From positions 523,504 through 587,503 of the forward strand of contig JBAZUB010000001.1 of the NCBI GenBank assembly GCA_041661625.1: a stretch of 64,000 nt of DNA, in the 5' to 3' direction. Below, piece by piece: positions 14,242 through 63,206 of the stretch. Made by a program: the position numbers and the translations under genes. The notes under the pieces are model-generated. The model ran no database searches and was not told where the DNA came from. It saw nothing but the letters and a program-made list of their open reading frames with translations. Numbering within the stretch: position 1 is the first letter of the stretch; every line of letters starts with the position of its first letter. The DNA comes from Patescibacteria group bacterium (lineage in GTDB: Bacteria; Patescibacteriota; Patescibacteriia; JAHIZJ01).

Positions 14242-14774
14242 ATCGACGGTTCCGGGGTTCCTGATCTGGTACTCGGGCATCGTATTTCAATCGCAAGGGC
14301 GGATGAAGCACGATGCTCTTTTTTTATTATTATATCGCTTTAGCCTGACTGCTTATTTTACAAAAGTTGGCCCGCTCTTGACATTGTATACAGGTAGTAC
14401 TAAGGTGGAATCAAATTGAATATGTGAGGCGATGAGCTATTGTCTGAATCTGGTCGCTTTCCCTATATAATTGCTAGTCTAAAGGCTTTTATGGAGGGGC
14501 GGACAATAGGGAGCTAGTAGCGAAACCGACACGATTCCACTCGATCATCAGCCTCAATTCGTTGAGGTTTTTGTGTAATATTAGGCATTTTCTCAAGCAT
14601 CCTAGTCTTATCCGAATACAAACCTCGGGTGAGACGGGGTGCTGGAGGGAAACCCGACAGCACCTTGACAACCTGTTTGACAAACATCCAAGTGATAGTA
14701 AAGTTCTGCACAACTGCCGATGGGAATACATCTCAGCGGCCATCCGGTCCGTCCTGATCGAAGGAGGTCTTGTC

Positions 14775-23446: not shown

Positions 23447-23689
23447 GCCCTACAATACTAACCTTTGGCCCTATTGATGGGTCCTCGGCCCGGGGAGATG
23501 CGACAGGCACTGGTTATGAAGAGGGCTGGCGTACCTTGCAGATGCGCTCCGAGGGGAGCGTTTTCGTACGAGGCGAATCGCAACGCTTCGCGTTTGACCT
23601 GAAGCCTAGGGAGACAGTCGCAGAGGAGCAATCCTTCCCAACGTCTCCCTTCATATTTCTTGATCCTTTCATCATAAGGAGTGTACCCG
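23447..23689 (+). ncRNA. candidate structured non-coding leader / template RNA associated with the reverse transcriptase
   Basis: ~240 nt between the predicted TSS and the RT ATG with no ORF and multiple stable hairpins (agggagac...gtctccct 8 bp; gcgaa-tcgcaacgc-ttcgc; GC-rich stems around cggcccgggg). Ends with SD aaggag. Confidence 0.35.
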
Positions 23690-24793
23690 ATGCTCCGTAG
23701 CAGCCAGAGGTACTATTCGTTCGTCAACCCGCGCCAGTTTGCGCTCCCCTCTGACCCGCGTGTTGTGATGCGGGTGTCGGGCTGTGCAGCACTCCTCAAG
23801 GAGGTGCGGATCGGCCAGGCATTTCTTGCATCGATCCTGACAAATCCTGATCTTCACTGGCATCGCCGCATCGTTACAGGTGGGCGCAGTTCGCGCAAGG
23901 GAAAACAGCGCATTTGTTTCGTGGCAAGCGGCGAGCTCCGGTGGTACCAGAACAGACTGTGGAACCTCATGCGCTATATCCTTTCCGTCCGGAACGGACA
24001 TCTGCTCATCGCGCAAGAGCCGTGCCACTTGTATCGGAACATCAGAACGACCCAGTCGAGTGAGGGAACCGATTTCCCGGCAACAGCATACAACACCGGG
24101 TGCAATGTCATTCGCAACGCCCGATGGCACCGCCACAATCAGTCAAGCTGGTGTCTTGACATCTCGGGTGCATTCGCATCCATCCGCATGAAGCACTTGT
24201 ACCGCTTTCTGCTCCGCAAGCAGTTCCCGCCCGATCTAGCATGGATTATCTGCCGGATGTTCACCTATAACGGCGGACTTCCGCAGGGTGGCCCGTACTC
24301 ACCCTTCATCTACAACCTGCTCATGCAGCGGTTTGATGAAACTGTTGCGGCTGCGATCGGCGCTCCGACGAAAACTGTGACATTCCATCGAGCCAAACTG
24401 GAGGGATTTCCATACAGCGGTCCGATATATACGCGATACGGTGACGACCTCTGCTTCTCCCACCCGGATGAAGAATTCCCTGATGCGCTCAAGGGAACCA
24501 TCGACCGAGTGATAAGAGAACACCACCTGATTCTCAACGCGACAAAAACGCGCGAGGGTAGACATGGGATCATGGAACTTCCTGGCGTGGTGATTGTACA
24601 CGGACGCGTACGGCCACCTTCGGCTTATGTCACCCGTGTATGTACGGCTGCCGACCAAGGAAACCTCACCTCCATTCAGCGCTGCGGACACCGCGGCTAC
24701 CTCCTCACGTTCGGGCGGGCGGGCAGACTCCGATGCCTACGGCAACGGATTAACCTGCGATCCAAGCCGCGCTACGATCAACTTCCGTTCTAA
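23690..24793 (+). CDS. reverse transcriptase (RT domain only; retron/DRT-like, not DGR, no maturase/endonuclease)
   Basis: RT motifs in order: RICFVASGELRWYQNRLWNLMRYIL (motif 1/2-like), NARWH...WCLDISGAFASI (motif 3, catalytic D), LPQGGPYSPFIYNLL (motif 4, QGxxxSP), YTRYGDDLCFS (motif 5, YxDD), LILNATKTREG (motif 6). SD aaggag 8 nt upstream. Own terminator downstream. Confidence 0.8.
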   Translation: MLRSSQRYYSFVNPRQFALPSDPRVVMRVSGCAALLKEVRIGQAFLASILTNPDLHWHRRIVTGGRSSRKGKQRICFVASGELRWYQNRLWNLMRYILSVRNGHLLIAQEPCHLYRNIRTTQSSEGTDFPATAYNTGCNVIRNARWHRHNQSSWCLDISGAFASIRMKHLYRFLLRKQFPPDLAWIICRMFTYNGGLPQGGPYSPFIYNLLMQRFDETVAAAIGAPTKTVTFHRAKLEGFPYSGPIYTRYGDDLCFSHPDEEFPDALKGTIDRVIREHHLILNATKTREGRHGIMELPGVVIVHGRVRPPSAYVTRVCTAADQGNLTSIQRCGHRGYLLTFGRAGRLRCLRQRINLRSKPRYDQLPF

Positions 24794-29743: not shown

Positions 29744-30114
29744 ACTAGTGCTACAGAAAAGTCGGGGTTTTCAAACAAAACCGTTTAGTATTAACCGGGG
29801 AGACAACATTTGACCCAAGGTTAACCACCATCAGTTCCTTTGACCGCTCGGAGAAAAAACAGGGGTATCAAATCATATTGGGTATCACTGTTTTTTCTTC
29901 GCCCTACGCCAAGGCTACGGGCGACACTGTCCCCCGTACTTTTTGCGAAGTGCTACCGAAGAAAAAATGCACGTTGACAACCGAAAAGTGATAAGAAAGG
30001 CTTCAATCAATTCAATTCCGTCTCCTCAACCGCTTCTCACGAACGGTTTGAGCGAGACAACAAGAAATAATAGAGCTTCATTCCTTAAACGGAATGACAC
30101 TCTCTCATTCTAAT

Positions 30115-31727
<1,613 letters not shown>

Positions 31728-31947
31728 AGGGAGAAAAGTCAGTACCGACGCGCAAGCGCCTGGTACTGACCAACCCCGTTACCTCGGTGGGTAACGGACC
31801 CTATAAAAGGGTCGATGCATGGATCATCTTCGGATGATACATGTCACTGCCTTTCTTATCACCTTTCGGAATGTCAACCCCCGTCAGTCGCGACTGACGA
31901 GGTTAACAAACCTAGTACCCCCGTGGTACTGGGCAACAAACAACATT

Positions 31948-31972
31948 CCCGTTTCAACAACGGGTTTTTTGT
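31948..31972 (+). terminator. rho-independent terminator after the 16S gene and structured spacer
   Basis: cccgtt-tcaac-aacggg followed by ttttttg; the spacer 31728-31947 is hairpin-rich but contains no tRNA or 23S. Confidence 0.5.
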
Positions 31973-32070
31973 TATTACAGTGGCTATTGACAATCTGCCT
32001 CTTTTCCTGTATTATTCCCTATTCACGAAATCGACTTGGGTTGCCCGAACGATAGAGGAGGGTTCCGGCC

Positions 32071-33078
32071 ATGTCCAAGATACTGGTGGTTTCGGATGTT
32101 CATTTGATCAGTCATGTGGAGTCACTTTCGACTCAACAGTTACGGCTTCAATTCATGCCATGGCTGCTGCAGCGGCGCTGGATACCGCTGTGGCTGGTGC
32201 GCTGGATTGTCGCCAAGCTGCGGCAGACCAGCGTCGCCGCGATGGAGAAGCTGGTGTCCGTGGTCGGGCCTTACAAGTTCGACTCGGTTATTACGGTAGG
32301 TGACACCATCCACGGTGTCGAGGAGCGTGGCGGCCACGGTCTCGCCGGACGCGCGGTGATGGCGGAATTGCTTAGCTATCTACCCAGGCTAGCCAAGCGA
32401 GTCCTCTTCCAAGTACCTTCCGAACACGAATTGGGGTACTGGGATGGAGTTGATTATTTCCCTCATGTGAAGTGGTGGCCTTTTCGTTTCATTGTCTGGT
32501 TGATCCGCCTGCTTATCGGCCACCCTCATCCCTTCCCCCGGCTAACCTGGAATAGCCTGGTACCGAGACCCGGGCTAATCCTACAGCGTGAAATCGGGGG
32601 ACGGTACGATCCCGATGCGATCACGCAATGGCTCGAGCGAGTCGGACCGCTCTGGGGTAGCACCGTGGTCGAAGGCTGGACGTTTGTCTGGCTCGACTGC
32701 GACCTCATCCGCTGGCGGGAGAAGTTTTACAGGCTGAATAATTCCTACTACCTCGACCTAATGCGCCGCCAGGATGAGTTCCTGCAGCAGGTGCTCATGG
32801 ACGCGCCGATCGGTCGAGTGGTTCTATTCACCCATCGGGTGAGCGTGATGATCGACCCGGTACTGCGGCGGTTCTGGTACACCATTCACGCGGTCACATT
32901 CGGTGACGCGCACTTTGCGGCCCAAGCACGGCGCGATGTGGCCGCGCTTGGATTGATTCCGTTCAAAACATGGTTTATCCCGGCCGCCTGGGGCTTCCAA
33001 TGCGGCATCGGCCATCCCGGCTATGCCACCATCAACGTCACCCCAGAGGCGGTGACGTTCACCTCCACGACGATATAA
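32071..33078 (+). CDS. calcineurin-like metallophosphoesterase family protein
   Basis: MSKILVVSDVHL (D-x-H) and VITVGDTIHG (GDxxxG) motifs; ~58% GC. Confidence 0.5.
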   Translation: MSKILVVSDVHLISHVESLSTQQLRLQFMPWLLQRRWIPLWLVRWIVAKLRQTSVAAMEKLVSVVGPYKFDSVITVGDTIHGVEERGGHGLAGRAVMAELLSYLPRLAKRVLFQVPSEHELGYWDGVDYFPHVKWWPFRFIVWLIRLLIGHPHPFPRLTWNSLVPRPGLILQREIGGRYDPDAITQWLERVGPLWGSTVVEGWTFVWLDCDLIRWREKFYRLNNSYYLDLMRRQDEFLQQVLMDAPIGRVVLFTHRVSVMIDPVLRRFWYTIHAVTFGDAHFAAQARRDVAALGLIPFKTWFIPAAWGFQCGIGHPGYATINVTPEAVTFTSTTI

Positions 33079-33141
33079 CCCACATTCCCCTGACTGACGG
33101 CTCTGCTGCGGTTGGGGGTTTCTTTTTTTACCATGATAATA

Positions 33142-33576
33142 TTACGGTCTCGCGATCAAGCGACTATACGCACAGTTCATAAATACTAACGAACCAAGTA
33201 GCGGTATGTAAGCAAACAAAACATAATAATCAGCCGCGAAAATAAATACTGATAGTATTAAAAATATGGCGACTGATAATTTTATTATCAGATATGCTTG
33301 AGTCAACCGATACATGCGCCAGATACCTATTACGGCTAGCGTGTTTAAGACGACCAGGCTAAGAAATAAGATGGAGCCTACCAAAGAATATATTCGATCA
33401 TTCAATAACCCATCAACTGAAATCGGTGCCACATTTTTTGATAAGTGACGAATGAAGTATGGCATGGCCATTGCTACCATCCCCAAACCTGCAATCTGTA
33501 ATATTAACAAAATCCGCCAGGTGAGTCGGCGCCTGGGAAACTTATCGAAATAGTCCCGTCTTTCGTTTCTTTTCAT
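33142..33576 (-). CDS. small integral membrane protein (4 TM)
   Basis: Hydropathy; 144 aa. Confidence 0.4.
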   Translation of the reverse strand: MKRNERRDYFDKFPRRRLTWRILLILQIAGLGMVAMAMPYFIRHLSKNVAPISVDGLLNDRIYSLVGSILFLSLVVLNTLAVIGIWRMYRLTQAYLIIKLSVAIFLILSVFIFAADYYVLFAYIPLLGSLVFMNCAYSRLIARP

Positions 33577-33718
33577 TATGGCAATAAACTAGAATGTGTT
33601 CTATTATCATGAAATAGCTAACCCGGACAATACCGACCCTTGTCAAATATACTATTTTCTGCTAAATTGTGATAGTCACTAAATGGCTTTTTTCAAATAT
33701 ATTATTAATTCGGGCGAT

Positions 33719-33790
33719 TAGTCCCGATGTCCCGTTGCGGGAATCGGGATCCCGATCGATTACGAAGTAATCGCATCGGGACTCAGGTCG
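33719..33790 (+). repeat. tRNA-Ile 5'-end fragment (gggcgattag...ctcaggt) interrupted by a ~58-bp palindromic mini-element (TIR tcccgatg/catcggga; core atcgggatcccgat)
   Basis: gggcgattag + tcccgatgtcccgttgcgggaatcgggatcccgatcgattacgaagtaatcgcatcggga + ctcaggt. A related element lies at 57346-57400. Confidence 0.45.
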
Positions 33791-33833
33791 TGAGGCGGCG
33801 TAAGAAAGGATCATTAAATAATTGAAATTGTAA

Positions 33834-33869
33834 GGGCGATTAGCTCAGGTGGTTAGAGCGCGTCACTGA
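33834..33869 (+). pseudogene. exact copy of the 5' half of tRNA-Ile(GAT), nt 1-35, ending within the anticodon
   Basis: gggcgattagctcaggtggttagagcgcgtcactga is identical to the 5' 36 nt of the intact gene at 33929. Confidence 0.7.
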
Positions 33870-33928
33870 CCCGCCTGCCGAAGTAGGGAGAACATTGCCA
33901 GATAAATAGCTGAATTCGCTACCCTCAT

Positions 33929-34005
33929 GGGCGATTAGCTCAGGTGGTTAGAGCGCGTCACTGATAATGACGAGGTCCCAGGTTCGAGTCCTGGATCGCC
34001 CACCA
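33929..34005 (+). tRNA. tRNA-Ile (anticodon GAU), CCA encoded
   Basis: Cloverleaf: acceptor gggcgat/atcgccc, D-arm gctcaggtggttagagc, anticodon arm cgtca-ctGATaa-tgacg, T-arm ccagg-ttcgagt-cctgg, discriminator A, CCA. Confidence 0.9.
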
Positions 34006-34045
34006 GAGCGAAGCAGTTATTTATAGCGTTCGTACGGCGGGCAGG

Positions 34046-34086
34046 TAATGACGAGGTCCCAGGTTCGAGTCCTGGATCGCCCACCA
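34046..34086 (+). pseudogene. exact copy of the 3' half of tRNA-Ile(GAT), nt 36-76 incl. CCA
   Basis: taatgacgaggtcccaggttcgagtcctggatcgcccacca is identical to the 3' 41 nt of the intact gene; together with 33834-33869 it reconstitutes a full tRNA. Confidence 0.7.
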
Positions 34087-34108
34087 GCCTACGCCAAGGC
34101 TTCGTCTG

Positions 34109-34240
34109 GCGGGGCCATGTCTAGGTAGCTCAGCTGGGCCACGCAAAGCGGGGCGGGCAGAAGCGAACAAGCCCGCAGGGCGCCGTAAGCATCGACTGCT
34201 CAGAGCAGTAGCAGGTGCTGCCCCGGAAGAGCGAAGGAAA
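34109..34240 (+). pseudogene. degenerate tRNA-Phe-like D-arm fragments flanking a GC-rich structured insert
   Basis: gtctaGGTAGCTCAGCTGG ... ccggaaGAGCGAAGG resemble nt 5-19 and 22-30 of the downstream tRNA-Phe. Confidence 0.3.
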
Positions 34241-34266
34241 ATTATTTTAAAAAGTACTGACAATAA

Positions 34267-34342
34267 GCCGAGGTAGCTCAGCTGGTAGAGCGAAGGACTG
34301 AAAATCCTTGCGTCGCCGGTTCGATTCCGGCCCTCGGCACCA
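34267..34342 (+). tRNA. tRNA-Phe (anticodon GAA), CCA encoded
   Basis: gccgagg-ta-gctcagctggtagagc-g-aagga-ctGAAaa-tcctt-gcgtc-gccggttcgattccggc-cctcggc-a-cca. Confidence 0.9.
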
Positions 34343-34393
34343 GAGTTTTTTTGAATGAACCCAAAGTATAAGCGATCGTTGGTAGTATGATAA

Positions 34394-34470
34394 CGGGGTG
34401 TGGCGCAGTTGGCTAGCGCGCCTGCTTTGGGAGCAGGAGGTCGAGGGTTCAAGTCCCTCCACCCCGACCA
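34394..34470 (+). tRNA. tRNA-Pro (anticodon UGG), CCA encoded
   Basis: cggggtg...cctgc-ttTGGga-gcagg...gagggttcaagtccctc-caccccg-a-cca. Confidence 0.85.
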
Positions 34471-34482
34471 GCTGTATATACT

Positions 34483-34592
34483 ACCGGTCAGCGCAGTTGG
34501 ACTTGGAAACAGGAAGTCGAGGGTTTCCGCCCAAGGCGGACCACGAACCCGCTGTGGCTCGCGGCAAGTCCCTCCACCACGACCAGCTGTAT
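34483..34592 (+). pseudogene. degenerate tRNA-Pro-like copy with 40-nt insertion in the T-arm, bounded by direct repeat accagctgtatatact
   Basis: gtcgagggtt[tccgcccaaggcggaccacgaacccgctgtggctcgcgg]caagtccctccaccacgacca; the 16-nt direct repeat is also found at the 3' end of tRNA-Pro (34467-34482). Confidence 0.45.
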
Positions 34593-34713
34593 ATACTCCC
34601 GGTTAAGGCAGTCAGACGGGATCAGGCGGTCATAGTAGATTACGTTTTATTATACCTCACTACAATTGAAATGTGGAGTGTTGTAATTTTCAAGCAAAAC
34701 AGTTTGCCAGCCT

Positions 34714-56456: not shown

Positions 56457-56705
56457 TACACACCTTAATTTAGGCTCTGGCCGGTGTCACCCACTATGTA
56501 ATTACTACAGGCGTTTGACGAGAAGAGTTTCGCTGGTCGGCCCTACCGACCCCGGACTCTGATCCGGGGGAACCGGTCTCCAGGGTCTCGCTGGCCACAC
56601 TTCGCTAAAGTTACGCGTGACACCGCTCGACCCGTCTAAGCTCTCGTAGACTAAAGCAGTTCAGTCTACTCGTGGCTAAGACCCTCCGCGTTGTCCCGAT
56701 AGTTT
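56457..56705 (-). other. structured non-coding region downstream of tRNA-Ala (unassigned; possible small RNA)
   Basis: 250 nt without an ORF; several stable hairpins (gtagact...agtctac; ccccgg...ccgggg; ggtcgg...ccgacc). I could not match it to 5S, SRP, tmRNA or RNase P consensus by eye. Confidence 0.2.
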
Positions 56706-56708
56706 GGG

Positions 56709-56781
56709 TGGACCCTACCGGGCTCGAACCGGTCACCTCCGCGTTGCAAACGCGGCGCTCTACCAAATGAGCTAAGGGCCC
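56709..56781 (-). tRNA. tRNA-Ala (anticodon UGC) with G3:U70
   Basis: gggccct-ta-gctcatttggtagagc-gccgcg-ttTGCaa-cgcggag-gtgac-cggttcgagcccgg-agggtcc-a; flanked by inverted repeat cgatagtttgggtgg/ccacccaaactatcg. Confidence 0.85.
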
Positions 56782-56791
56782 ACCCAAACTA

Positions 56792-56920
<129 letters not shown>

Positions 56921-57118
56921 TCATGGTCTATGCAAACGTGTTGTTTTACTGCATCTCTATTATGTTGGGCCAAACGTTTATCGCTATCTTCAGCACTACC
57001 AATATAGTACCGTCTACTATCGACCGACTGTTATATGTATGTGTCGTACATGTCGTCGCAAAGTATCGGAACAAACGCGATGCCCCGCCTGCCACGACGG
57101 CATGCCGGGCGGGTCTAC

Positions 57119-57140
57119 CAGCTGAGCTAACGGCCCGTGA
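57119..57140 (-). pseudogene. tRNA 5' fragment (gggccgttagctcagctggtag) followed by GC-rich hairpin
   Basis: 19-22 nt identical to a tRNA acceptor + D-arm start; no complete cloverleaf follows. Confidence 0.3.
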
Positions 57141-57298
57141 TCCTGTTGTTACTCATTGCTAAGATGCTTTGGTTGATATAACTGCGAGAACCTGGGCGGG
57201 TCGGTCAGAGACATCGCCCCGCCCGTCTCAGCCGTCGCGACACAAGCGGTTGTGTCGCTCCCCGCTTACAGCGGTGACGGCTTCGACCCAGCTGAGCT

Positions 57299-57318
57299 AA
57301 CGGCCCAAGTTGTTGTTC
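57299..57318 (-). pseudogene. second copy of tRNA 5' fragment (gggccgttagctcagctggg)
   Basis: Same 19-mer as 57119-57140, 180 nt away, again followed by a long GC-rich structured insert. Confidence 0.3.
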
Positions 57319-57345: not shown

Positions 57346-57400
57346 TCAGATGAATCCCGATGTGGCTATAGGCCAATCGGGATCCCGACTCCCGTCATCG
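57346..57400. repeat. small palindromic element related to the one at 33729-33786 (TIR tcccgatg/catcggga, core atcgggatcccga)
   Basis: tcccgatgtggctataggccaatcgggatcccgactcccgtcatcggga. Confidence 0.4.
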
Positions 57401-57411
57401 GGACGTCGAGA

Positions 57412-58417: not shown

Positions 58418-59338
58418 TTAGCCTTTTCTCAGGCTTTTTAGGGTCTGCTGCCACCAGGCTGGCGGGTCTATCTTGAAAGACTGGCTCTGGCCGTCACGGT
58501 CGGAAAACTCCAGGCGGTCGGCTAAAAGCATCAGATGTTCGGTGCTAGCCAAACGGCTAAACCGGCTGATCCGATATAATGGGTCGCCAACTAGCGGATG
58601 TCCTAGCCCGTGAAAGTGAACCCGGATTTGGTGGGTTCGGCCGGTGAGAGTTTTTACTCCCACTAACGCCATGTGGTTGAATCTTTCCAATACCTCATAC
58701 TCGGTATGCGCCGATCGCCCTTCGGCCTGTTCGCTGGGACGGCTCGACATGCGGCCTTCTTTGGTTCGGACAATATTGAAAGTAATTGCGCCCTCGTCCG
58801 GCAAAACGGGATCATACACCAGGGCTAAATAATGTTTGTGTATTTTATGAGCCTGGAATTGGCTTTTGTAATATTCAAACGACGCTTGATTCAATGTCAC
58901 CAAAATAAGTCCACTGGCCTCCTTATCCAACCGATGGACAATGCCGGGCCGGATCGGATCGTCGCCGACTTTTATGATATCCGGCCAACGATGTGTCAAC
59001 CCGTTGACCAGTGTATGAGCCGGCGCACCTTCGGCCGGATGTACCACCAAGCCAGCCGGTTTTACGATTACCGCGTAATCTGCTGTCTCGGCCAGTATTT
59101 TAAAATCAATATCCGGTTCGGGTAATGTGTTCATAATTGGCCGAGCGACTGGTTCAAAATTTATTTTGTCATTAACACACAACGCCAAATGTGGCTTGGC
59201 TATCACGCCATTAACCCAAACTCGCTGATCTAGAATCAGTTTTTGGATCCAGGACCGGCTATATTCCGGATGCTGGTTGTGCAAGTATTTATCTAGGCGC
59301 TGCCCGATGGCTTCGGGTGCGATGGTGAGGTGTTCCAT
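58418..59338 (-). CDS. RluA-family pseudouridine synthase (RluD-like, S4 domain + catalytic domain)
   Basis: QRLDKYL (S4), [13 protein letters not shown] (catalytic Asp), and YLALV... motifs. Confidence 0.8.
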
Positions 59339-60794
59339 GGCGTTTTTTTAAGTAGGTCCGCGCTTGGTCCTTGGTGGTAACTTGTCCTCGCAATTGGCGC
59401 AATCTCAGATCTTCCAGCGCCAGGCCAACCTGCGGTCCGGGTGACCATTTTATTAGGCGCATTATTTCGGTTCCATCCAGCAATAATTTGGGGGTAGCGG
59501 AGTGGCTGTAACCTGTTTTTTTTATACGCTGAATTGACCGGACTGTCGCCTGGTATCTTTGCAATGCGGGTTTATTATTTTTTGTCCGGCTGCCCCCGCC
59601 ATCGGCGTATAGCATCTGGAGCAGTCTTTGCCCGCGCTCGGGTGGAATAAGAAAATACCGCTCCAGCGTGGTCGGGCGCATCTTAGCCGGCTCACCATGG
59701 AGCACCACCATATGGGATTGAATCAACCAACATAACCGGTCGCAGTCTATCAAACCCTGATAACTGCTTAGTTTTAGCCGTTGGCAAACATCACCCGCGA
59801 TTTTACTGCCAACGATTTCATGACCATAGAAAGACCGCCGGCCATTAGGTAAACTCTTGGCTGTGTATGGCTTTCCGACATCATGCAGCAACACTCCCAG
59901 AATCAGTTCGGGATGCAACTGGGCGGTGTCCGGAAATTCTTTTTTAAATCCTGGCGATGCTAACACCTCCAAAGCTAGCCGTGTATGCGTCCAGACGTCG
60001 CCCTCCAAATGAAACCGTGGGTCATGGCGACAACCTTTCATTTTCAACAGTTCGGGTAATAATACCTTGAACGCGCCGCTACGCTCACAAAGGTCAAAAG
60101 CTCTCACTGGCTGAGCAGTTAGCGTTTTTATCAACTCTTTGGCCACCGCCTCCCTGGGTACGACCGCCGAGTTAACCCTGGGCATTAGTCGGACCAACGC
60201 CAGCCAGGTAGCTGGTTCAATATCAAAACCCAATTGCACGCTGAAACGCAGGGCGCGCAACAGCCGTGAATAGTCCTCTTGAAATCGACGTGTAGGTGAA
60301 CCGGCTGCCCGAATCTTCTTGGCCGCTAGGTCAGACAAACCGCCCGTGGGATCAATTAATTTTTCCGCTGCCATGTCCCAGGCCAGCGCGTTGGCCGTAA
60401 AATCACGCCGCTTCAAATCTTGTTCGATCGGCAGACGATAATCAGATTGGACTTTGAAATCGTGGTACCCGCCGGACATGTGTAGCGAATGCTCGGTGCG
60501 AGGTAGTGCCACATCGATCGGATCCGCACCGCTCTGGTCTCTGGGCACCACTTTGTATACACCGAATACTCGGCCGACGTAATCGACCCGACCGACACGA
60601 TTTAAATATTTTTCCAACTCCTTGGGCGGTAAGCCAGACACAACGATATCGACATCTTTGGTCGGACGCCCCATCAGCCAATCACGCACCGCACCGCCCA
60701 CAATATATATCCGGCATTTCGGATACAACTTCAAAAGGCGCGTGGCAAAATTCAATCGCGCGTCCCGCTTGATATGTTGTTTGATGGTAATCAT
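59289..60794 (-). CDS. cca: CCA-adding enzyme / poly(A) polymerase family nucleotidyltransferase with HD domain
   Basis: YIVGGAVRDWLMGRPTKDVDIVV (GG..RD...D.D head), RRDFTANA, and C-terminal HD (LLHDVGK). Confidence 0.8.
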   Translation of the reverse strand: MITIKQHIKRDARLNFATRLLKLYPKCRIYIVGGAVRDWLMGRPTKDVDIVVSGLPPKELEKYLNRVGRVDYVGRVFGVYKVVPRDQSGADPIDVALPRTEHSLHMSGGYHDFKVQSDYRLPIEQDLKRRDFTANALAWDMAAEKLIDPTGGLSDLAAKKIRAAGSPTRRFQEDYSRLLRALRFSVQLGFDIEPATWLALVRLMPRVNSAVVPREAVAKELIKTLTAQPVRAFDLCERSGAFKVLLPELLKMKGCRHDPRFHLEGDVWTHTRLALEVLASPGFKKEFPDTAQLHPELILGVLLHDVGKPYTAKSLPNGRRSFYGHEIVGSKIAGDVCQRLKLSSYQGLIDCDRLCWLIQSHMVVLHGEPAKMRPTTLERYFLIPPERGQRLLQMLYADGGGSRTKNNKPALQRYQATVRSIQRIKKTGYSHSATPKLLLDGTEIMRLIKWSPGPQVGLALEDLRLRQLRGQVTTKDQARTYLKKRHGTPHHRTRSHRAAPR

Positions 60795-61610: not shown

Positions 61611-61679
61611 TTATCCTTGGTGGGCGATAGAGGAATCGAACCTCTGTCCGGGGTGCGCCGGTCAGAACAACGGCACACC
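61611..61679 (-). pseudogene. tRNA 3'-end-derived fragment (T-arm + acceptor atcgccc + CCA) fused to a repeat also found at 62750-62781
   Basis: Minus strand: acgggtgtgccgttgttctgaccggcgcaccccggacagaggttcgattcctctatcgcccacca. The acceptor 3' strand matches tRNA-Ile (gggcgat). Confidence 0.4.
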
Positions 61680-61756
61680 CGTCGTGGCCCGCGCAAAGGC
61701 AAGCAGTTGCCTTTGCTTGTCACCACAACCCTCCACAACCCGCCCGCCAAAGCTTG

Positions 61757-61830
61757 TGGGCGGCACAAGAGTTGAACTTGTGACCTCCACAATGTCAATG
61801 TGGCGCTCTAACCAACTGAGCTAGCCGCCC
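61757..61830 (-). tRNA. tRNA-Val (anticodon GAC)
   Basis: gggcggc-ta-gctcagttggttagagc-g-ccaca-ttGACat-tgtgg-aggtc-acaagttcaactcttgt-gccgccc-a. Confidence 0.85.
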
Positions 61831-61846
61831 ACAAGCGGCGCGCGGG

Positions 61847-61884
61847 TGTCAATGTGGCGCTCTAACCATCTGAGCTAACCGCCC
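61847..61884 (-). pseudogene. duplicated 5' half of a tRNA-Val (ends in anticodon loop) 17 nt upstream of the intact gene
   Basis: Minus strand gggcggttagctcagatggttagagcgccacattgaca, i.e. nt 1-37 of a Val(GAC) tRNA, then diverges (cccgcgcgccgcttgt). Confidence 0.55.
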
Positions 61885-61942: not shown

Positions 61943-62581
61943 TCAAGCCCCCAGTGGAATGACGTGTTCGCGAATTACTCTTGCATAATCGTGACGCGAT
62001 TTATCATACGCGTACAGTCCGATAACTACCTCGTTAGCCACAAATGATTTGCCTCTCAGCGTACGGGCTTCCGCTTGGATTCGAGAAACATGCTTATACT
62101 GAGCCGTGACACTACCCAGCGTTACATGAGGATGAAACCGACTACCGACACGTAAATACCCGTATTTTAGTATCGCTTTAATTTCTATCGGTGTAAATAT
62201 CTTCTCTCGAATCCGTTGCATATCTTTGCTTCTGATTCGATTCCCGCGCAACTGATTAGCGATTCTGATAATATTCATATGGAATTTTTTTAGCAACGGC
62301 CTCTCGGTTATGCCCAAGCTAATGAATGTGCCCTTACGGTGCGGCGCCAGACGCACTTTGGTTATAGTCAATCGTATTGATTTGAGCTGGGTGCGTATAA
62401 TTTGCCTCTGAAGAATTGGAAAGTCGGTTTGCCTAAATTTAGACAAATATATAGTTACGTGCGGTTCATGCTGAAAATTACCCGGATAAACCAAACCAAA
62501 CGCTTTCTGTATACCCCGAATCTTCTTAGCGATATCAGGTCTAACGTTAAGATGTATACCGAGTACTGTTTCGGTTCTCAT
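61943..62581 (-). CDS. 2H phosphoesterase superfamily protein (LigT-like 2'-5' RNA ligase / cyclic phosphodiesterase)
   Basis: Two H-x-T-x motifs: EPHVTIYL and HPHVTLGS. Confidence 0.65.
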   Translation of the reverse strand: MRTETVLGIHLNVRPDIAKKIRGIQKAFGLVYPGNFQHEPHVTIYLSKFRQTDFPILQRQIIRTQLKSIRLTITKVRLAPHRKGTFISLGITERPLLKKFHMNIIRIANQLRGNRIRSKDMQRIREKIFTPIEIKAILKYGYLRVGSRFHPHVTLGSVTAQYKHVSRIQAEARTLRGKSFVANEVVIGLYAYDKSRHDYARVIREHVIPLGA

Positions 62582-62713: not shown

Positions 62714-62749
62714 GAGTATGTTGATATAAATAGCGGAACCTGGATGCGC

Positions 62750-62781
62750 CGGTCAGAACAACGGCACACCCGTCTCACCCC
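62750..62781 (-). repeat. second copy of the tRNA-3'-fragment-associated repeat (acgggtgtgccgttgttctgaccggcgca)
   Basis: 32/32 identical to 61648-61679; followed by a degenerate T-arm-like sequence. Confidence 0.5.
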
Positions 62782-62902
62782 TCGTAGACGCAAACAGTTG
62801 CGTCTACTTGTGGGTTCGACCCATCTTATATCAGCCTCCGACCTGACATTGATTATTGTGGCTGATATATCAACGACCTCACAATCAGTATTTATCCCGT
62901 GG

Positions 62903-62975
62903 TGGGCGTGGATGGTCTCGAACCATCGACCCCTGCCTTATAAGGGCAGTGCTCTAACCCCTGAGCTACACGCCC
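62903..62975 (-). tRNA. tRNA with anticodon UAU (nominally Ile, AUA-decoding), CCA encoded
   Basis: gggcgtg-ta-gctcaggggttagagc-a-ctgcc-ctTATaa-ggcag-gggtc-gatggttcgagaccatc-cacgccc-a-cca; flanked by extended stem atcccgtgg/ccacgggat. Confidence 0.7.
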
Positions 62976-63206
62976 ACCACGGGATATTAATATTTGAAAT
63001 CGTCGCTATAAAGACGGTGCTCCCAGCTCCGCATCCCGAACGCAGTGAGTGGTGTGGGGTAACCTTCGCCTACTCACTTGGGCACCGAACAAAAGTGGGA
63101 TCAACACGCCCATAATGTATAACGTACTTTTTCACCAGACCGAAAGCCGGGCGCAGAGCGTCCGGGCTCGCTGACGCTGTCAGTGTCGGTGCTACTTTAC
63201 TTTGTT

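What the first reader, a model, noticed from the sequence alone, without database searches (positions are those of the whole stretch)
33834..34086. tRNA-Ile(GAU) nested between exact copies of its own 5' and 3' halves split at anticodon position 35/36
33834-33869 is identical to nt 1-36 of the intact tRNA-Ile at 33929-34005 (ending ...cgtcaCTGA). 34046-34086 is identical to nt 37-76+CCA (TAATGacg...cgcccacca). Joined, the two outer halves give a perfect tRNA-Ile. The intervening 176 nt consists of a 59-nt arm X, the complete tRNA-Ile, and a 40-nt arm Y. X and Y are partly reverse-complementary (cccgcctgcc vs ggcgggcagg immediately abutting both half-ends; ataaatagctg..ttcgct vs the revcomp of Y). 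The outer gene therefore looks like a tRNA interrupted at the anticodon by a cassette that itself carries a hairpin-flanked full tRNA. A junction inside the anticodon loop with a helix abutting both exon ends is reminiscent of split/intron-containing archaeal tRNAs, but bacteria lack BHB splicing. Alternatives are integrase-type att duplication at the anticodon loop or tandem-duplication scars. Exact half-copies with single-nucleotide precision are hard to get by chance. More speculatively, an RT gene lies in the same window, and retro-insertion of tRNA halves is conceivable but unsupported.
Basis: seen in the sequence. Interest (0 to 1): 0.65.

Follow-up and report, generated by a model that had tools for sequence, protein, structure and literature searches.

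The report
tRNA gene nested inside its copy
In this candidate-phyla-radiation bacterium a 176-base cassette carrying a complete isoleucine tRNA gene has recently landed in the anticodon loop of the resident, identical tRNA gene; it is one fresh example of an apparently undescribed, widespread habit of these bacteria of replacing tRNA genes from within, often next to small GIY-YIG nuclease genes.

Summary
It is not an intron. There is no group I/II signal, the 5' exon ends in A not U, and there is no bulge-helix-bulge. Three syntenic relatives carry one uninterrupted, identical tRNA-Ile whose flanks match the flanks of the window's OUTER halves, so X-tRNA-Y is a strain-specific insertion.

A second nest (tRNA-Val GAC, minus strand) has an empty-site allele in one relative. 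An identical cassette sits in a more distant one.

Across 103 sources, 55 of 204 tRNAs carry partial self-copies, with 5' pieces upstream and 3' pieces downstream (p~1e-20). Several are full nests, one at the same Ile 35/36 site.

Seven small GIY-YIG nuclease genes lie 4-63 nt from tRNAs, five of them between an outer fragment and the inner tRNA. The window's tRNA-Ala nest holds a decayed one.

Best reading: repeated site-specific breaks in tRNA genes are repaired with a replacement tRNA cassette, a homing-like process. The inner gene works and the outer halves are fresh relics. The nuclease link is inferred for the Ile nest.

A ~85-nt structured insert family in tRNA D and variable loops was also found.

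The parts
33712..33721 (+). Oldest layer: tRNA-Ile nt 1-10 (GGGCGATTAG), lying directly after the conserved upstream anchor/promoter region
   Evidence: In relative L008 the intact tRNA-Ile starts at exactly this point. L009 and L010 share the fragment.
33722..33781 (+). 60-nt hairpin insert (TCCCGATG...CATCGGGA) in the D-stem of the old fragment; a second copy lies at 57355-57404 (-)
   Evidence: Present in L009 and L010, absent in L008.
33782..33801 (+). Decayed tRNA-Ile nt 11-30 (75% identical to the tRNA) belonging to the old layer
   Evidence: family D5.
33834..33869 (+). Outer 5' half: resident tRNA-Ile nt 1-36, ending ...CACTGA (through anticodon base 2)
   Evidence: Its upstream flank is orthologous to the flank of the intact gene in L009/L010.
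33870..33928 (+). X: left arm of the cassette (GC clamp CCCGCCTGCC, then the leader strand of the helix). No promoter-like site.
   Evidence: The first 14 nt recur inverted in L005. The L036 cassette at the same site starts similarly, CCCTGAAGTAG.
33929..34005 (+). Inner, intact tRNA-Ile(GAU): the presumed working gene
   Evidence: 71.3 bits.
34006..34045 (+). Y: right arm of the cassette (trailer strand, then GC clamp GGCGGGCAGG)
34046..34086 (+). Outer 3' half: resident tRNA-Ile nt 37-77, starting TAATGACG
   Evidence: The downstream 32-nt spacer (34087-34118) is orthologous to the spacer after the intact gene in L008.
34119..34137 (+). Remnant of the resident tRNA-Phe (nt 1-19) at the orthologous position
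34138..34227 (+). 90-nt GC-rich structured insert in the D-loop of the Phe remnant, followed by Phe nt 21-31 at 34228-34238
34267..34342 (+). Replacement tRNA-Phe. Its acceptor stem (GCCGAGG/CCTCGGC) differs, with compensation, from the relatives' GCCTGGG/CCCAGGC.
34491..34600 (+). tRNA-Pro debris downstream of the intact tRNA-Pro (34394-34470): partial copy, a 39-nt hairpin insert in the T-loop (34526-34564), and the 3' end plus trailer copy
   Evidence: Absent in L008 and L010.
61847..61884 (-). Val nest: outer 5' half (nt 1-38, through A37) of the resident tRNA-Val(GAC)
   Evidence: Equals the 5' part of the uninterrupted gene in L103.
61739..61846 (-). Val cassette: X (61831-61846, CCCGCGCGCCGCTTGT), inner tRNA-Val(GAC) (61756-61830), Y (61739-61755, AAGCTTTGGCGGGCGGG)
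   Evidence: X, the inner tRNA and Y are identical in L104; in L005, whose contig begins inside the inner tRNA, the inner 3' part and Y are identical.
61618..61738 (-). Val nest: outer 3' part = TTGTGGAGG (61730-61738), an 83-nt M-element in the variable loop (61647-61729), then the T-arm and acceptor (61618-61646)
   Evidence: (splices in silico to a perfect tRNA-Val).
56534..57306 (-). Ala nest (decayed). 5' pieces at 57281-57306 and 57114-57136; M-element 57190-57287; GC hairpin 57083-57113; GIY-YIG pseudogene 56959-57051; inner tRNA-Ala 56705-56782 with a 13-bp leader/trailer helix; 3' debris 56683-56693; M-element 56579-56682; broken T-arm and 3' end 56534-56578.
   Evidence: Parallel to L088, which has an intact GIY-YIG ORF.
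62738..62820 (-). Further M-element copy with a T-arm remnant, upstream of tRNA-Val(UAC). It shares a 30-nt exact stretch with 61654-61683.
   Evidence: 88.4 bits.

Best explanation
The locus is a fresh scar of tRNA-gene replacement from within. SHOWN: a resident, previously uninterrupted tRNA-Ile(GAU) gene was broken between anticodon bases 2 and 3, and a 176-bp cassette was inserted there with no loss, gain or duplication of any base. The cassette consists of a GC-clamped leader, a complete tRNA-Ile, and a trailer. INFERRED: the whole array is transcribed from the old upstream promoter. The X:Y helix extends the inner acceptor stem. RNase P and the 3' processing enzymes cut out the inner tRNA, which is now the working gene. 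The outer halves are new pseudo-exons that will decay. Older layers of the same process surround the Ile, Phe, Pro, Ala and Val genes in this window. INFERRED mechanism: repeated site-specific double-strand breaks in tRNA genes are repaired by copying or capturing a tRNA cassette from another allele or genome. The nuclease is most likely one of the small GIY-YIG nucleases found beside such cassettes in other candidate-phyla-radiation genomes and as a pseudogene in this window. One-sided repair would give '5' fragment - cassette - tRNA' or 'tRNA - cassette - 3' fragment'. Two such events at the same cut site, or capture of a whole hairpin-bounded cassette, or homing from an already nested allele using the outer halves as homology arms, would give the full nest. 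Any of these would explain the single-base complementarity of the halves. Insertions into a single-copy essential tRNA gene survive only if they bring a working copy, which explains why the tRNA sits inside its own kind.
For: Insertion into an intact gene: L008, L009 and L010 have one uninterrupted, 100% identical tRNA-Ile whose flanks match the flanks of the window's outer halves. All 92 other contigs with the same 36-nt 5' half continue as an intact gene. Second case: L103 has an intact tRNA-Val(GAC) equal to the window's outer exons joined. L104 (flanking LigT-like gene only 73% aa identical) has the identical X, inner tRNA and Y. The closer L103 (90%) is empty. This is an occupied/empty polymorphism discordant with relatedness. 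Generality: 55 of 204 tRNAs in 737 kb have flanking self-fragments with strict polarity (45/2/8/58, Fisher p 1e-20, one opposite-strand hit). Full nests occur in L011, L036 (same Ile 35/36 site, similar X start), L094, L065, L033 and L067. Foreign origin of inner copies: the window's Phe and L088's Ala have compensated acceptor-stem differences from the resident remnant. Nuclease link: seven GIY-YIG ORFs (Pfam E 3e-12 to 3e-17) lie 4-63 nt from a tRNA on the same strand. In L059, L088, L091, L095 and L067 the ORF lies between an outer fragment and the inner tRNA. A decayed copy sits in the window's Ala nest. Decay of outer copies: the L005 T-arm is destroyed while the inner tRNA 3' part and Y stay identical, and there are many incomplete outer genes. 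Expression: promoter-like sites lie only upstream of the array. Precedent: phage SegB, a free-standing GIY-YIG endonuclease, cuts within tRNA genes and drives tRNA+segB duplication by break repair (PMC13096335).
Against: No nuclease gene lies in or next to the Ile or Val cassettes of this window. The only GIY-YIG trace is a pseudogene 23 kb away, and only 64 kb of a ~0.7-Mb genome is visible. The GIY-YIG proteins are 70-83 aa, a catalytic domain with no recognisable DNA-binding domain, and none has been shown to cut a tRNA gene. No donor locus with X and Y flanks was found. The inner copy keeps the presumed target site. That fits the onion layers but is unusual for homing elements. Outer exons are strikingly intact in some genomes (window Val, L104, and L036 with six pieces). 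A pure relic model explains this only by recency or co-conversion. The loci surveyed were chosen for carrying one tRNA-Ile sequence, and some are duplicates of the same genome, so frequencies are rough.
Confidence: 0.6

Rival explanations
1. The outer gene is a real, expressed gene and the cassette is an intron-like element removed at the RNA level. RNase P/Z cutting of the inner tRNA would leave two outer halves held together by the X:Y helix. These would then be trimmed and ligated by an unknown bacterial system, or used as a two-piece tRNA-like RNA. On this view the D-loop, variable-loop and T-loop inserts are likewise non-canonical introns or tolerated expansions.
For: Both nests fold as a cloverleaf within a cloverleaf. 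Outer genes of the window's Val, L104, L094 and L036 (six pieces) splice in silico to perfect tRNAs. Outer Val exons are identical in the window, L103 and L104 despite 73-90% identity of the flanking protein. Inserts always sit in loops, and the M-element replaces exactly the length-variable positions 20 and 47. The M-element has strong covariation and always lies in the sense orientation. Y and the outer anticodon-stem strand are 100% conserved between the window and L005 although the neighbouring non-coding DNA is only ~73% identical. A 2H-phosphoesterase/LigT-like gene and a CCA-adding enzyme flank the Val nest.
Against: There is no bulge-helix-bulge. No group I/II or small-ribozyme match was found at E<=10. 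The 5' exons end in A, whereas group I requires U (PMC13011429). The outer gene always duplicates an intact gene of the same anticodon, so it is dispensable. Relatives have empty sites. Many outer genes lack essential parts (L005, L011, L033, L065, L059). The Ile split lies inside the anticodon, so an unligated product cannot decode. The LigT-like hit is weak (27 bits).
Confidence: 0.15
2. A small non-autonomous DNA transposon bounded by GC-rich inverted repeats (CCCGCC...GGCGGG) has captured a tRNA gene and transposes into tRNA loops, moved in trans by an unidentified transposase.
For: The Ile and Val cassettes share similar termini (CCCGCSYGCC / GGCGGGCRGG). 'Empty' GC hairpins with the same ends sit in outer tRNA pieces of L088, L091 and window 57083-57113. 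The motif recurs in L005. The Val cassette is identical in genomes that are otherwise diverged.
Against: There is no target-site duplication and no shared core at the junctions. The target tetranucleotides differ (CTGA, GACA, TAGA). No transposase lies nearby. Other nests (L011, L094, L065, L033) lack these termini. The terminal complementarity is equally well explained as an RNA leader/trailer processing helix, and it contains a G-U pair that would be a C-A mismatch on the other strand.
Confidence: 0.12
3. These are scars of integrase-mediated integration and excision at tRNA attachment sites, or of simple tandem duplication followed by deletions.
For: tRNA fragments next to tRNA genes are the classic footprint of integrative elements (PMC9897764). 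3' fragments downstream of intact genes are common here.
Against: 5' fragments upstream are equally common. No integrase is present in the window near the loci. The halves are exactly complementary, with no overlapping core. The inserted material is 100-180 nt, not an island. X shows no similarity to a tRNA 3' half plus spacer.
Confidence: 0.05
4. Reverse-transcriptase-mediated insertion: an RNA chimera is copied into cDNA and recombined into the gene. The chimera would be tRNA halves produced by an anticodon nuclease and ligated around a pre-tRNA.
For: Break points coincide with RNA loops. The inserts are compact folded RNAs. An RT gene exists in the window.
Against: The RT is retron-like and sits inside a ribosomal-protein operon 9 kb away. 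No RT accompanies nests in the other ~100 loci, whereas GIY-YIG DNA nucleases do. There is no poly-A or priming signature.
Confidence: 0.05
5. Assembly artefact caused by repeat collapse or a chimeric join.
For: Metagenome-assembled genome; short exact repeats.
Against: An independent k=141 assembly is identical over 5.9 kb. The repeats are 36 and 41 nt, shorter than k and the reads. The same architecture occurs in dozens of unrelated assemblies made with different assemblers.
Confidence: 0.02

Closest known systems
SegB and other free-standing GIY-YIG homing endonucleases of T-even phages (intronless homing; SegB-driven tRNA segmental amplification, PMC13096335)
   Same: A GIY-YIG nuclease gene sits next to tRNA genes. 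Cleavage falls within tRNA genes. Break repair duplicates a unit made of a tRNA plus the nuclease gene. The nuclease gene is often truncated or lost afterwards. The element needs no intron or splicing.
   Different: Here the setting is bacterial chromosomes, not phages. The proteins are 70-83 aa, a catalytic domain only, whereas SegB is a much larger protein (a 28-aa C-terminal truncation still leaves most of it; PMC13096335). The products are nested and polar fragment arrays rather than tandem repeats. Cleavage has not been demonstrated. The Ile cassette in the window has no ORF.
Group I introns in Patescibacteria tRNA genes at position 35/36 (PMC13011429)
   Same: Same phylum, same gene class, and the same unusual 35/36 position in the anticodon loop. 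Standard tRNA finders miss the interrupted gene in both cases.
   Different: No group I fold (no RF00028 match at E<=10). The 5' exon ends in A, not the required U. The element is too short (176 nt, of which 77 are a tRNA). The interrupted gene is redundant with the copy carried inside. The insertion is absent from close relatives.
Archaeal disrupted tRNA genes (multiple non-canonical introns, split and permuted tRNAs; functional RNA inside the tRNA-Trp intron)
   Same: Inserts lie at the D-loop, anticodon loop, variable loop and T-loop. A helix brings the exon ends together. Up to six pieces splice in silico to a perfect tRNA. An RNA gene sits inside the insert.
   Different: No bulge-helix-bulge motif at any junction examined by hand (the Val anticodon junction and the L104 D-loop junction); the Ile junction has the same helix-abutting geometry. 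No splicing endonuclease is known or seen. Every interrupted gene has an intact twin beside or inside it, and many are visibly broken.
'Fractured genes' and genes-in-pieces created by homing-endonuclease insertion (PMC2677866)
   Same: A free-standing endonuclease cassette splits an essential gene without an intron, and function is rescued by another route.
   Different: Rescue there is by split inteins or subunit assembly of the two protein halves. Here the cassette simply carries a whole replacement gene.
tRNA gene fragments left by integrative elements (PMC9897764)
   Same: Partial tRNA copies lie adjacent to intact tRNA genes.
   Different: Those are 3' (rarely 5') att repeats bounding kilobase-sized islands with an integrase. 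Here both polarities occur around 20-400 nt of insert, with exact complementary halves and no integrase.

Membership tests
Group I intron in a tRNA | Match to the group I covariance model (conserved P3-P8 core) | tested here: not met
   No RF00028 hit in 33600-34700 at E<=10 or at gathering threshold in the whole window.
Group I intron in a tRNA | U as the last base of the 5' exon and G as the last base of the intron | tested here: not met
   The 5' exons end in A (Ile ...CUGA; Val ...GACA). The intron-end G is present. Rule as stated in PMC13011429.
Archaeal/eukaryal protein-spliced tRNA intron | Bulge-helix-bulge: two 3-nt bulges carrying the splice sites, separated by a 4-bp helix | tested here: not met
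   Tested by hand from the sequences. At the Val junction the exon bases 32-35 (UUGA) cannot pair with the four intron bases that lie 2 nt before the 3' junction (GGCG). The L104 D-loop insert fails the same test (AGAU against ACCG). At the Ile junction no equivalent 4-bp helix could be found (the intron tetramer tried, GGCA, would need UGCC; the loop bases are CACU). The folds show the cassette helix starting directly at both junctions.
Archaeal/eukaryal protein-spliced tRNA intron | Splicing endonuclease (EndA) and RtcB-type ligase encoded in the genome | not testable with these tools
   Only 64 kb of a ~0.7-Mb genome is visible. None is seen in the window.
Homing-endonuclease mobile element (free-standing, GIY-YIG) | Endonuclease gene within or adjacent to the inserted DNA | tested here: inconclusive
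   Not met for the Ile and Val cassettes of the window, which have no ORF. Met for homologous architectures in L059, L067, L088, L091 and L095. A pseudogene lies in the window's Ala nest.
Homing-endonuclease mobile element (free-standing, GIY-YIG) | Occupied and empty alleles of the same site among related genomes, with a distribution discordant with phylogeny | tested here: met
   Ile: empty in L008, L009 and L010. Val: empty in L103 (90% flanking protein identity), occupied by the identical cassette in L104 (73%); L005 carries the identical inner 3' part and Y.
Homing-endonuclease mobile element (free-standing, GIY-YIG) | The nuclease cleaves the empty allele at or near the insertion site | not testable with these tools
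   Needs biochemistry. Indirect support only: in the census (exact 12-mers, not de-duplicated), downstream tRNA-Ile fragments start at linear position 37 (= standard 35/36) in the window, L036, L041, L052, L067 and L068; the L059 outer copy also resumes at TAATGACG.
DDE transposon / MITE | Terminal inverted repeats plus a target-site duplication | tested here: not met
   Inverted termini are present, but there is zero duplication at the Ile and Val junctions.
Tyrosine/serine-recombinase integrative element | Shared core (overlap) sequence at both junctions, and an integrase gene | tested here: not met
   No base is shared between the cassette ends and the exon ends. No integrase was found among the annotated genes.

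The most novel reading that the evidence does not exclude
The nested and multiply interrupted outer tRNA genes are not relics but expressed genes-in-pieces. On this reading, candidate-phyla-radiation bacteria possess a protein-dependent, non-BHB way of removing or tolerating structured inserts at the D, anticodon, variable and T loops. The ~85-nt M-element would then be a new class of small mobile intron or tRNA-embedded RNA domain, and the tRNA-in-tRNA a way of making two RNAs from one transcript.
Probability: 0.12. Interest if true: 0.95.

Novelty: new variant of a known kind. Interest (0 to 1): 0.78.

Why it matters
If the reading is right, tRNA genes in these minimal-genome bacteria are a battlefield for selfish nuclease cassettes. 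The cassettes avoid killing the host not by splicing, as introns and inteins do, but by carrying a spare copy of the gene they break. That is a third solution to the homing element's dilemma. It makes the host dependent on the invader's copy. It would also explain several things: why tRNA loci of these genomes are littered with half-genes, why tRNA finders under- or mis-call genes there, and how tRNA alleles are swapped horizontally (as the compensated acceptor stems suggest). It extends the recent SegB result from phages to cellular chromosomes. It also gives a natural counterpart of the engineered 'tRNA scaffold', in which an RNA is inserted into a tRNA anticodon arm. The M-element, which has strong covariation, no Rfam family, and always sits at tRNA positions 20 or 47, is a concrete new structured element to study. 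The minority reading, a real bacterial tRNA genes-in-pieces system, would overturn the textbook statement that bacteria have only self-splicing tRNA introns. It is directly testable with one small-RNA library.

Tried and rejected
1. ARAGORN intron mode (-i, -io, up to 600 nt) gave only nonsense chimeras, because it handles only canonical anticodon-loop introns.
2. Rfam at gathering threshold and at E<=10 on all three tRNA regions and on L005, L103 and L104 found no intron, ribozyme or other family.
3. The search for related loci with the 335-aa neighbour found no relatives in GTDB representatives. That gene turned out to be variable cargo between the 16S gene and the tRNAs.
4. PGA_cap homologues were too distant (68% identity or less) and not syntenic.
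5. A nest-specific gapped pattern in JGI metagenomes gave 0 hits.
6. The search for a donor locus with X or Y flanks among 100 loci gave only chance-level matches.
7. Three viral-contig scans, for the Ile 5' half and for the Val and Ile cassette junctions, gave 0 hits, so there is no evidence for a phage vector.
8. The 16S helix-6 expansion (~125 nt, absent in L009) is strain-specific but unrelated in sequence to the tRNA inserts.
9. The RT link was rejected: the RT gives only weak, sub-threshold retron-family matches and sits in a ribosomal-protein operon.
10. Twister-like or other small ribozymes in X were considered by eye. Rfam gives no support.
11. The integron attC, IS200/IS605 and IS110 models were considered and rejected on junction anatomy: no conserved target tetranucleotide, no core dinucleotide, and the termini are complementary to each other.
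Full report
OBSERVATION. The window is a chromosome segment of a Patescibacteria (candidate phyla radiation) bacterium. It has a bacterial 16S gene at 30109-31725. The flanking CapA protein is 100% identical to one from an NCBI 'Patescibacteria group bacterium' MAG with a 697-kb contig.

33834-33869 equals nt 1-36 of the intact tRNA-Ile(GAU) at 33929-34005. 34046-34086 equals nt 37-77. Joined, they give the perfect tRNA, and identity stops at the junctions. X (59 nt) and Y (40 nt) form a 10-bp GC clamp that abuts both half-ends, plus a ~19-bp inner helix. The minimum-free-energy RNA fold is a cloverleaf inside a cloverleaf (z -4.3).

An independent MEGAHIT k141 contig (L001, 405 kb) is identical across the region, so this is not an assembly artefact.

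WHAT IT IS NOT. It is not a group I or II intron. There is no Rfam hit even at E<=10. The 5' exon ends in A, whereas the group I introns recently described at this same 35/36 position in Patescibacteria tRNA-Asn/Asp require U (PMC13011429). It is not an archaeal-type intron: the cassette helix starts directly at both junctions, so there are no 3-nt bulges separated by a 4-bp helix. It is not an integrase or DDE-transposon footprint, because there is no shared core and no target duplication. The RT in the window (23681-24793) gives only weak retron-family matches and sits inside the S16-KH-TrmD operon 9 kb away.

COMPARATIVE EVIDENCE FOR THE ILE LOCUS. Through the 90%-identity cluster of the neighbouring 144-aa gene I obtained three syntenic relatives.
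- L008 (~90% nt identity): upstream anchor, one intact tRNA-Ile, a 32-nt spacer, tRNA-Phe, tRNA-Pro.
- L009 and L010 (~84%): anchor, Ile nt 1-10, a 57-nt hairpin insert, a decayed Ile 5' piece, an AT-rich spacer, an intact tRNA-Ile, then tRNA-Phe and tRNA-Pro.

The 77-nt tRNA-Ile is identical in all four genomes. The flanks of the window's OUTER halves are the orthologous flanks: the AT-rich spacer upstream and the 32-nt spacer downstream. The 176-nt X-tRNA-Y is therefore a strain-specific insertion into a previously intact gene.

A scan of public metagenome and species-representative genome collections for the 36-nt 5' half gave 92 contigs, and in all of them it continues as an intact gene.

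The window alone also has two further features. A 5' remnant of the resident tRNA-Phe sits at the orthologous position, followed by a replacement tRNA-Phe with a different, compensated acceptor stem. tRNA-Pro debris lies downstream of tRNA-Pro.

A SECOND AND THIRD NEST IN THE WINDOW. On the minus strand, tRNA-Val(GAC) (61756-61830) lies between X (CCCGCGCGCCGCTTGT) and Y (AAGCTTTGGCGGGCGGG). These in turn lie inside another tRNA-Val(GAC) split at 37/38. The outer copy has its own compensated acceptor stem and T-arm plus an 83-nt insert in the variable loop. With both inserts removed it is a perfect tRNA.

Relatives reached through the flanking genes show three states of the Val locus.
- L103 (flanking LigT-like protein 90% identical) has the empty site: an uninterrupted tRNA-Val equal to the window's outer exons joined.
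- L104 (73% identical) has the identical X, inner tRNA and Y, an intact outer 3' half, and a different ~90-nt insert in the outer D-loop.
- L005 (CCA-adding enzyme 92% identical) has the identical inner 3' part and Y, but its outer T-arm is destroyed by yet another insert.

So occupied and empty alleles coexist in a pattern that does not follow relatedness. The cassette is far better conserved than its surroundings, and the outer gene accumulates further inserts.

The tRNA-Ala region (56534-57306, minus strand) is an older nest. It has 5' pieces, a GC hairpin, a degenerate GIY-YIG reading frame (56959-57051), an inner tRNA-Ala with a 13-bp leader/trailer helix, and 3' debris.

GENERALITY. In 103 sources (737 kb, 204 tRNAs), 55 tRNAs have partial self-copies within 600 nt. 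5' pieces lie upstream and 3' pieces downstream (45, 2, 8 and 58 in the four classes; Fisher p 1e-20). Only one opposite-strand hit was found.

Full nests occur in these loci:
- L036: tRNA-Ile split at the same 35/36 site. X begins CCCTGAAGTAG, compared with CCCGCCTGCCGAAGTAG here. The outer gene is in six pieces.
- L011: split at 33/34.
- L094: a 2-nt overlap at the junction and tandemly repeated 3' pieces.
- L065: tRNA-Gly.
- L033: tRNA-Phe, split in the D-loop.
- L067.

Some outer genes still splice in silico to valid tRNAs, while many are visibly broken. That gives a continuum from fresh to decayed. These loci were selected for carrying one tRNA-Ile sequence and include duplicates of the same genome, so the frequencies are indicative only.

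THE NUCLEASE LINK. Seven small ORFs (70-83 aa) in these loci are GIY-YIG catalytic domains (Pfam E 3e-12 to 3e-17). All lie 4-63 nt from a tRNA on the same strand, six of them immediately upstream of it. In L059, L088, L091 and L095 the ORF lies between an outer 5' fragment and the inner intact tRNA. In L067 it lies between the inner tRNA and the outer 3' half. In L088 the inner tRNA-Ala has a compensated acceptor-stem difference from the outer copy, which marks it as a foreign allele.

The closest characterised system is phage SegB, a free-standing GIY-YIG homing endonuclease that cuts within tRNA genes and drives duplication of a tRNA+segB unit by break repair (PMC13096335).

MECHANISM (inferred). 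A site-specific break in a tRNA gene is repaired from, or filled by, a tRNA cassette of another allele.
- If only the 3' side of the break finds homology, the result is '5' fragment - cassette - tRNA'.
- If only the 5' side finds homology, the result is 'tRNA - cassette - 3' fragment'.
- Two events at the same cut site, capture of a whole hairpin-bounded cassette, or homing from an already nested allele using the outer halves as homology arms, each give the full nest with single-base complementarity.

Selection keeps only insertions that bring a working copy, hence Ile within Ile and Val within Val. Promoter-like sites lie only upstream of the whole array. The inner tRNA is therefore probably transcribed within the nested precursor and released by RNase P and the 3' processing enzymes.

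Weak points remain. There is no nuclease gene in the Ile or Val cassettes. No donor was found. The small GIY-YIG proteins lack a DNA-binding domain and are untested.

THE MINORITY READING. Several facts keep alive the possibility that some of these are real genes in pieces processed at the RNA level. Some multiply interrupted outer genes have perfectly preserved exons. The inserts are restricted to loops. The structured M-element is always in the sense orientation.

I give this reading about 0.12-0.15. The interrupted gene is always redundant, many copies are broken, and no known splicing signal is present.

VERDICT. The cassette description is correct, but the intron, att and RT interpretations are not. 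The feature is a recent, precise insertion of a replacement tRNA cassette. It belongs to a widespread and, as far as I could find, undescribed pattern in these bacteria. The most plausible driver is GIY-YIG nucleases.

Noticed in passing
window 61647-61729(-), 62738-62820(-), 57190-57287(-), 56579-56682(-); L104 903-991; L035 4769-4860(-); L039 2104-2195(-); L075 5939-6024; L056 1213-1291(-): 'M-element': an ~82-104-nt structured insert family with no Rfam match. It has a P1 closing stem (5'-GUC...GAC), a P2 hairpin with a conserved CAA-CUGC-UUG tip, a GA(R)AC linker, and a P3 hairpin (GGG...CCC) followed by a (C)GGA/AGG tail. In most copies it replaces the single T after GG in the D-loop (position 20) or the variable loop (position 47) of a redundant tRNA copy, and it is always in the sense orientation. 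The exceptions are L056, where an M-like copy precedes an Asp 3' fragment, and 62738-62820, which lies beside only a T-arm remnant. Covariation is strong: 19 of 30 pairs show double changes, 86% of cells are paired against 34-42% in slid controls, and 0 of 500 shuffles reach the observed values (the alignment was fitted to the model).
   Followed up: partly
window 57083-57113(-); L088 and L091 outer tRNA pieces; termini of the Ile (33870-33879, 34036-34045) and Val (61837-61846, 61739-61748) cassettes: A family of GC-rich hairpins (CCCGCCCGAAC...GTTCGGGCGGG and variants) is inserted in tRNA remnants. The same motif forms the clamp at the ends of the Ile and Val cassettes. Many cassette 5' ends begin with CCC. 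They may be empty footprints or minimal derivatives of the cassettes.
   Followed up: partly
window 33722-33781(+) and 57355-57404(-); L009, L010: A 50-60-nt hairpin element (TCCCGATG...TCGGGATCCCGAT...CATCGGGA) is inserted after G10 of tRNA-like 5' fragments. It occurs twice in the window and in two relatives.
   Followed up: partly
window 56959-57051(-): A degenerate GIY-YIG reading frame (MYDTYI*QSVDSRRYYIGSAEDSDKRLAQHN...) with an in-frame stop lies between tRNA-Ala 5' fragments and the intact tRNA-Ala.
   Followed up: partly
window 30188-30310 (within the 16S gene, 30109-31725): A ~125-nt expansion of 16S helix 6 is absent from the 97%-identical 16S of relative L009. It is strain-specific and GC-rich but unrelated in sequence to the tRNA inserts. 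The 16S gene is not followed by a 23S gene.
   Followed up: partly
window 31726-33576: The interval between the 16S gene and the 144-aa gene is variable cargo: a 335-aa protein with no Pfam match here, Lactamase_B plus LDcluster4 genes in L008, and a 117-aa gene in L009/L010.
   Followed up: no
window 23681-24793(+): A 370-aa reverse transcriptase with only weak, sub-threshold retron-family matches (St85/Ec67) is inserted between rpsP (S16) and the KH-domain/TrmD genes. The 330-nt upstream non-coding stretch was not examined for a retron ncRNA.
   Followed up: partly
window 61943-62581(-) and 59289-60794(-): A 2H-phosphoesterase/LigT-like gene (weak Pfam hit, 27 bits) lies immediately upstream of the Val nest, and a CCA-adding enzyme immediately downstream. 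The LigT-like gene keeps this position in L103 and L104. The adjacency may be coincidental.
   Followed up: partly
window 14416-14540(+): A cyclic-di-GMP-II riboswitch match exactly at the Rfam gathering score (53.5 bits), upstream of the 304-aa and 948-aa (Peptidase_C25/FlgD_ig) genes.
   Followed up: no
window tRNA flanks (e.g. 34378-34393/34471-34490; 56783-56795/56692-56704); L011, L035: Most tRNA genes in this lineage have leader and trailer sequences that pair with each other and extend the acceptor stem by 6-13 bp, sometimes pairing with the encoded CCA. In the window and its relatives the same tRNA-Pro carries different but internally complementary leader/trailer pairs, as if whole cassettes were exchanged.
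   Followed up: partly
window 62900-62975(-): A tRNA-Ile with anticodon UAU, which is uncommon in bacteria, lies next to tRNA-Val(UAC). It is flanked by an 18-nt inverted repeat (62893-62910 / 62969-62986).
   Followed up: no
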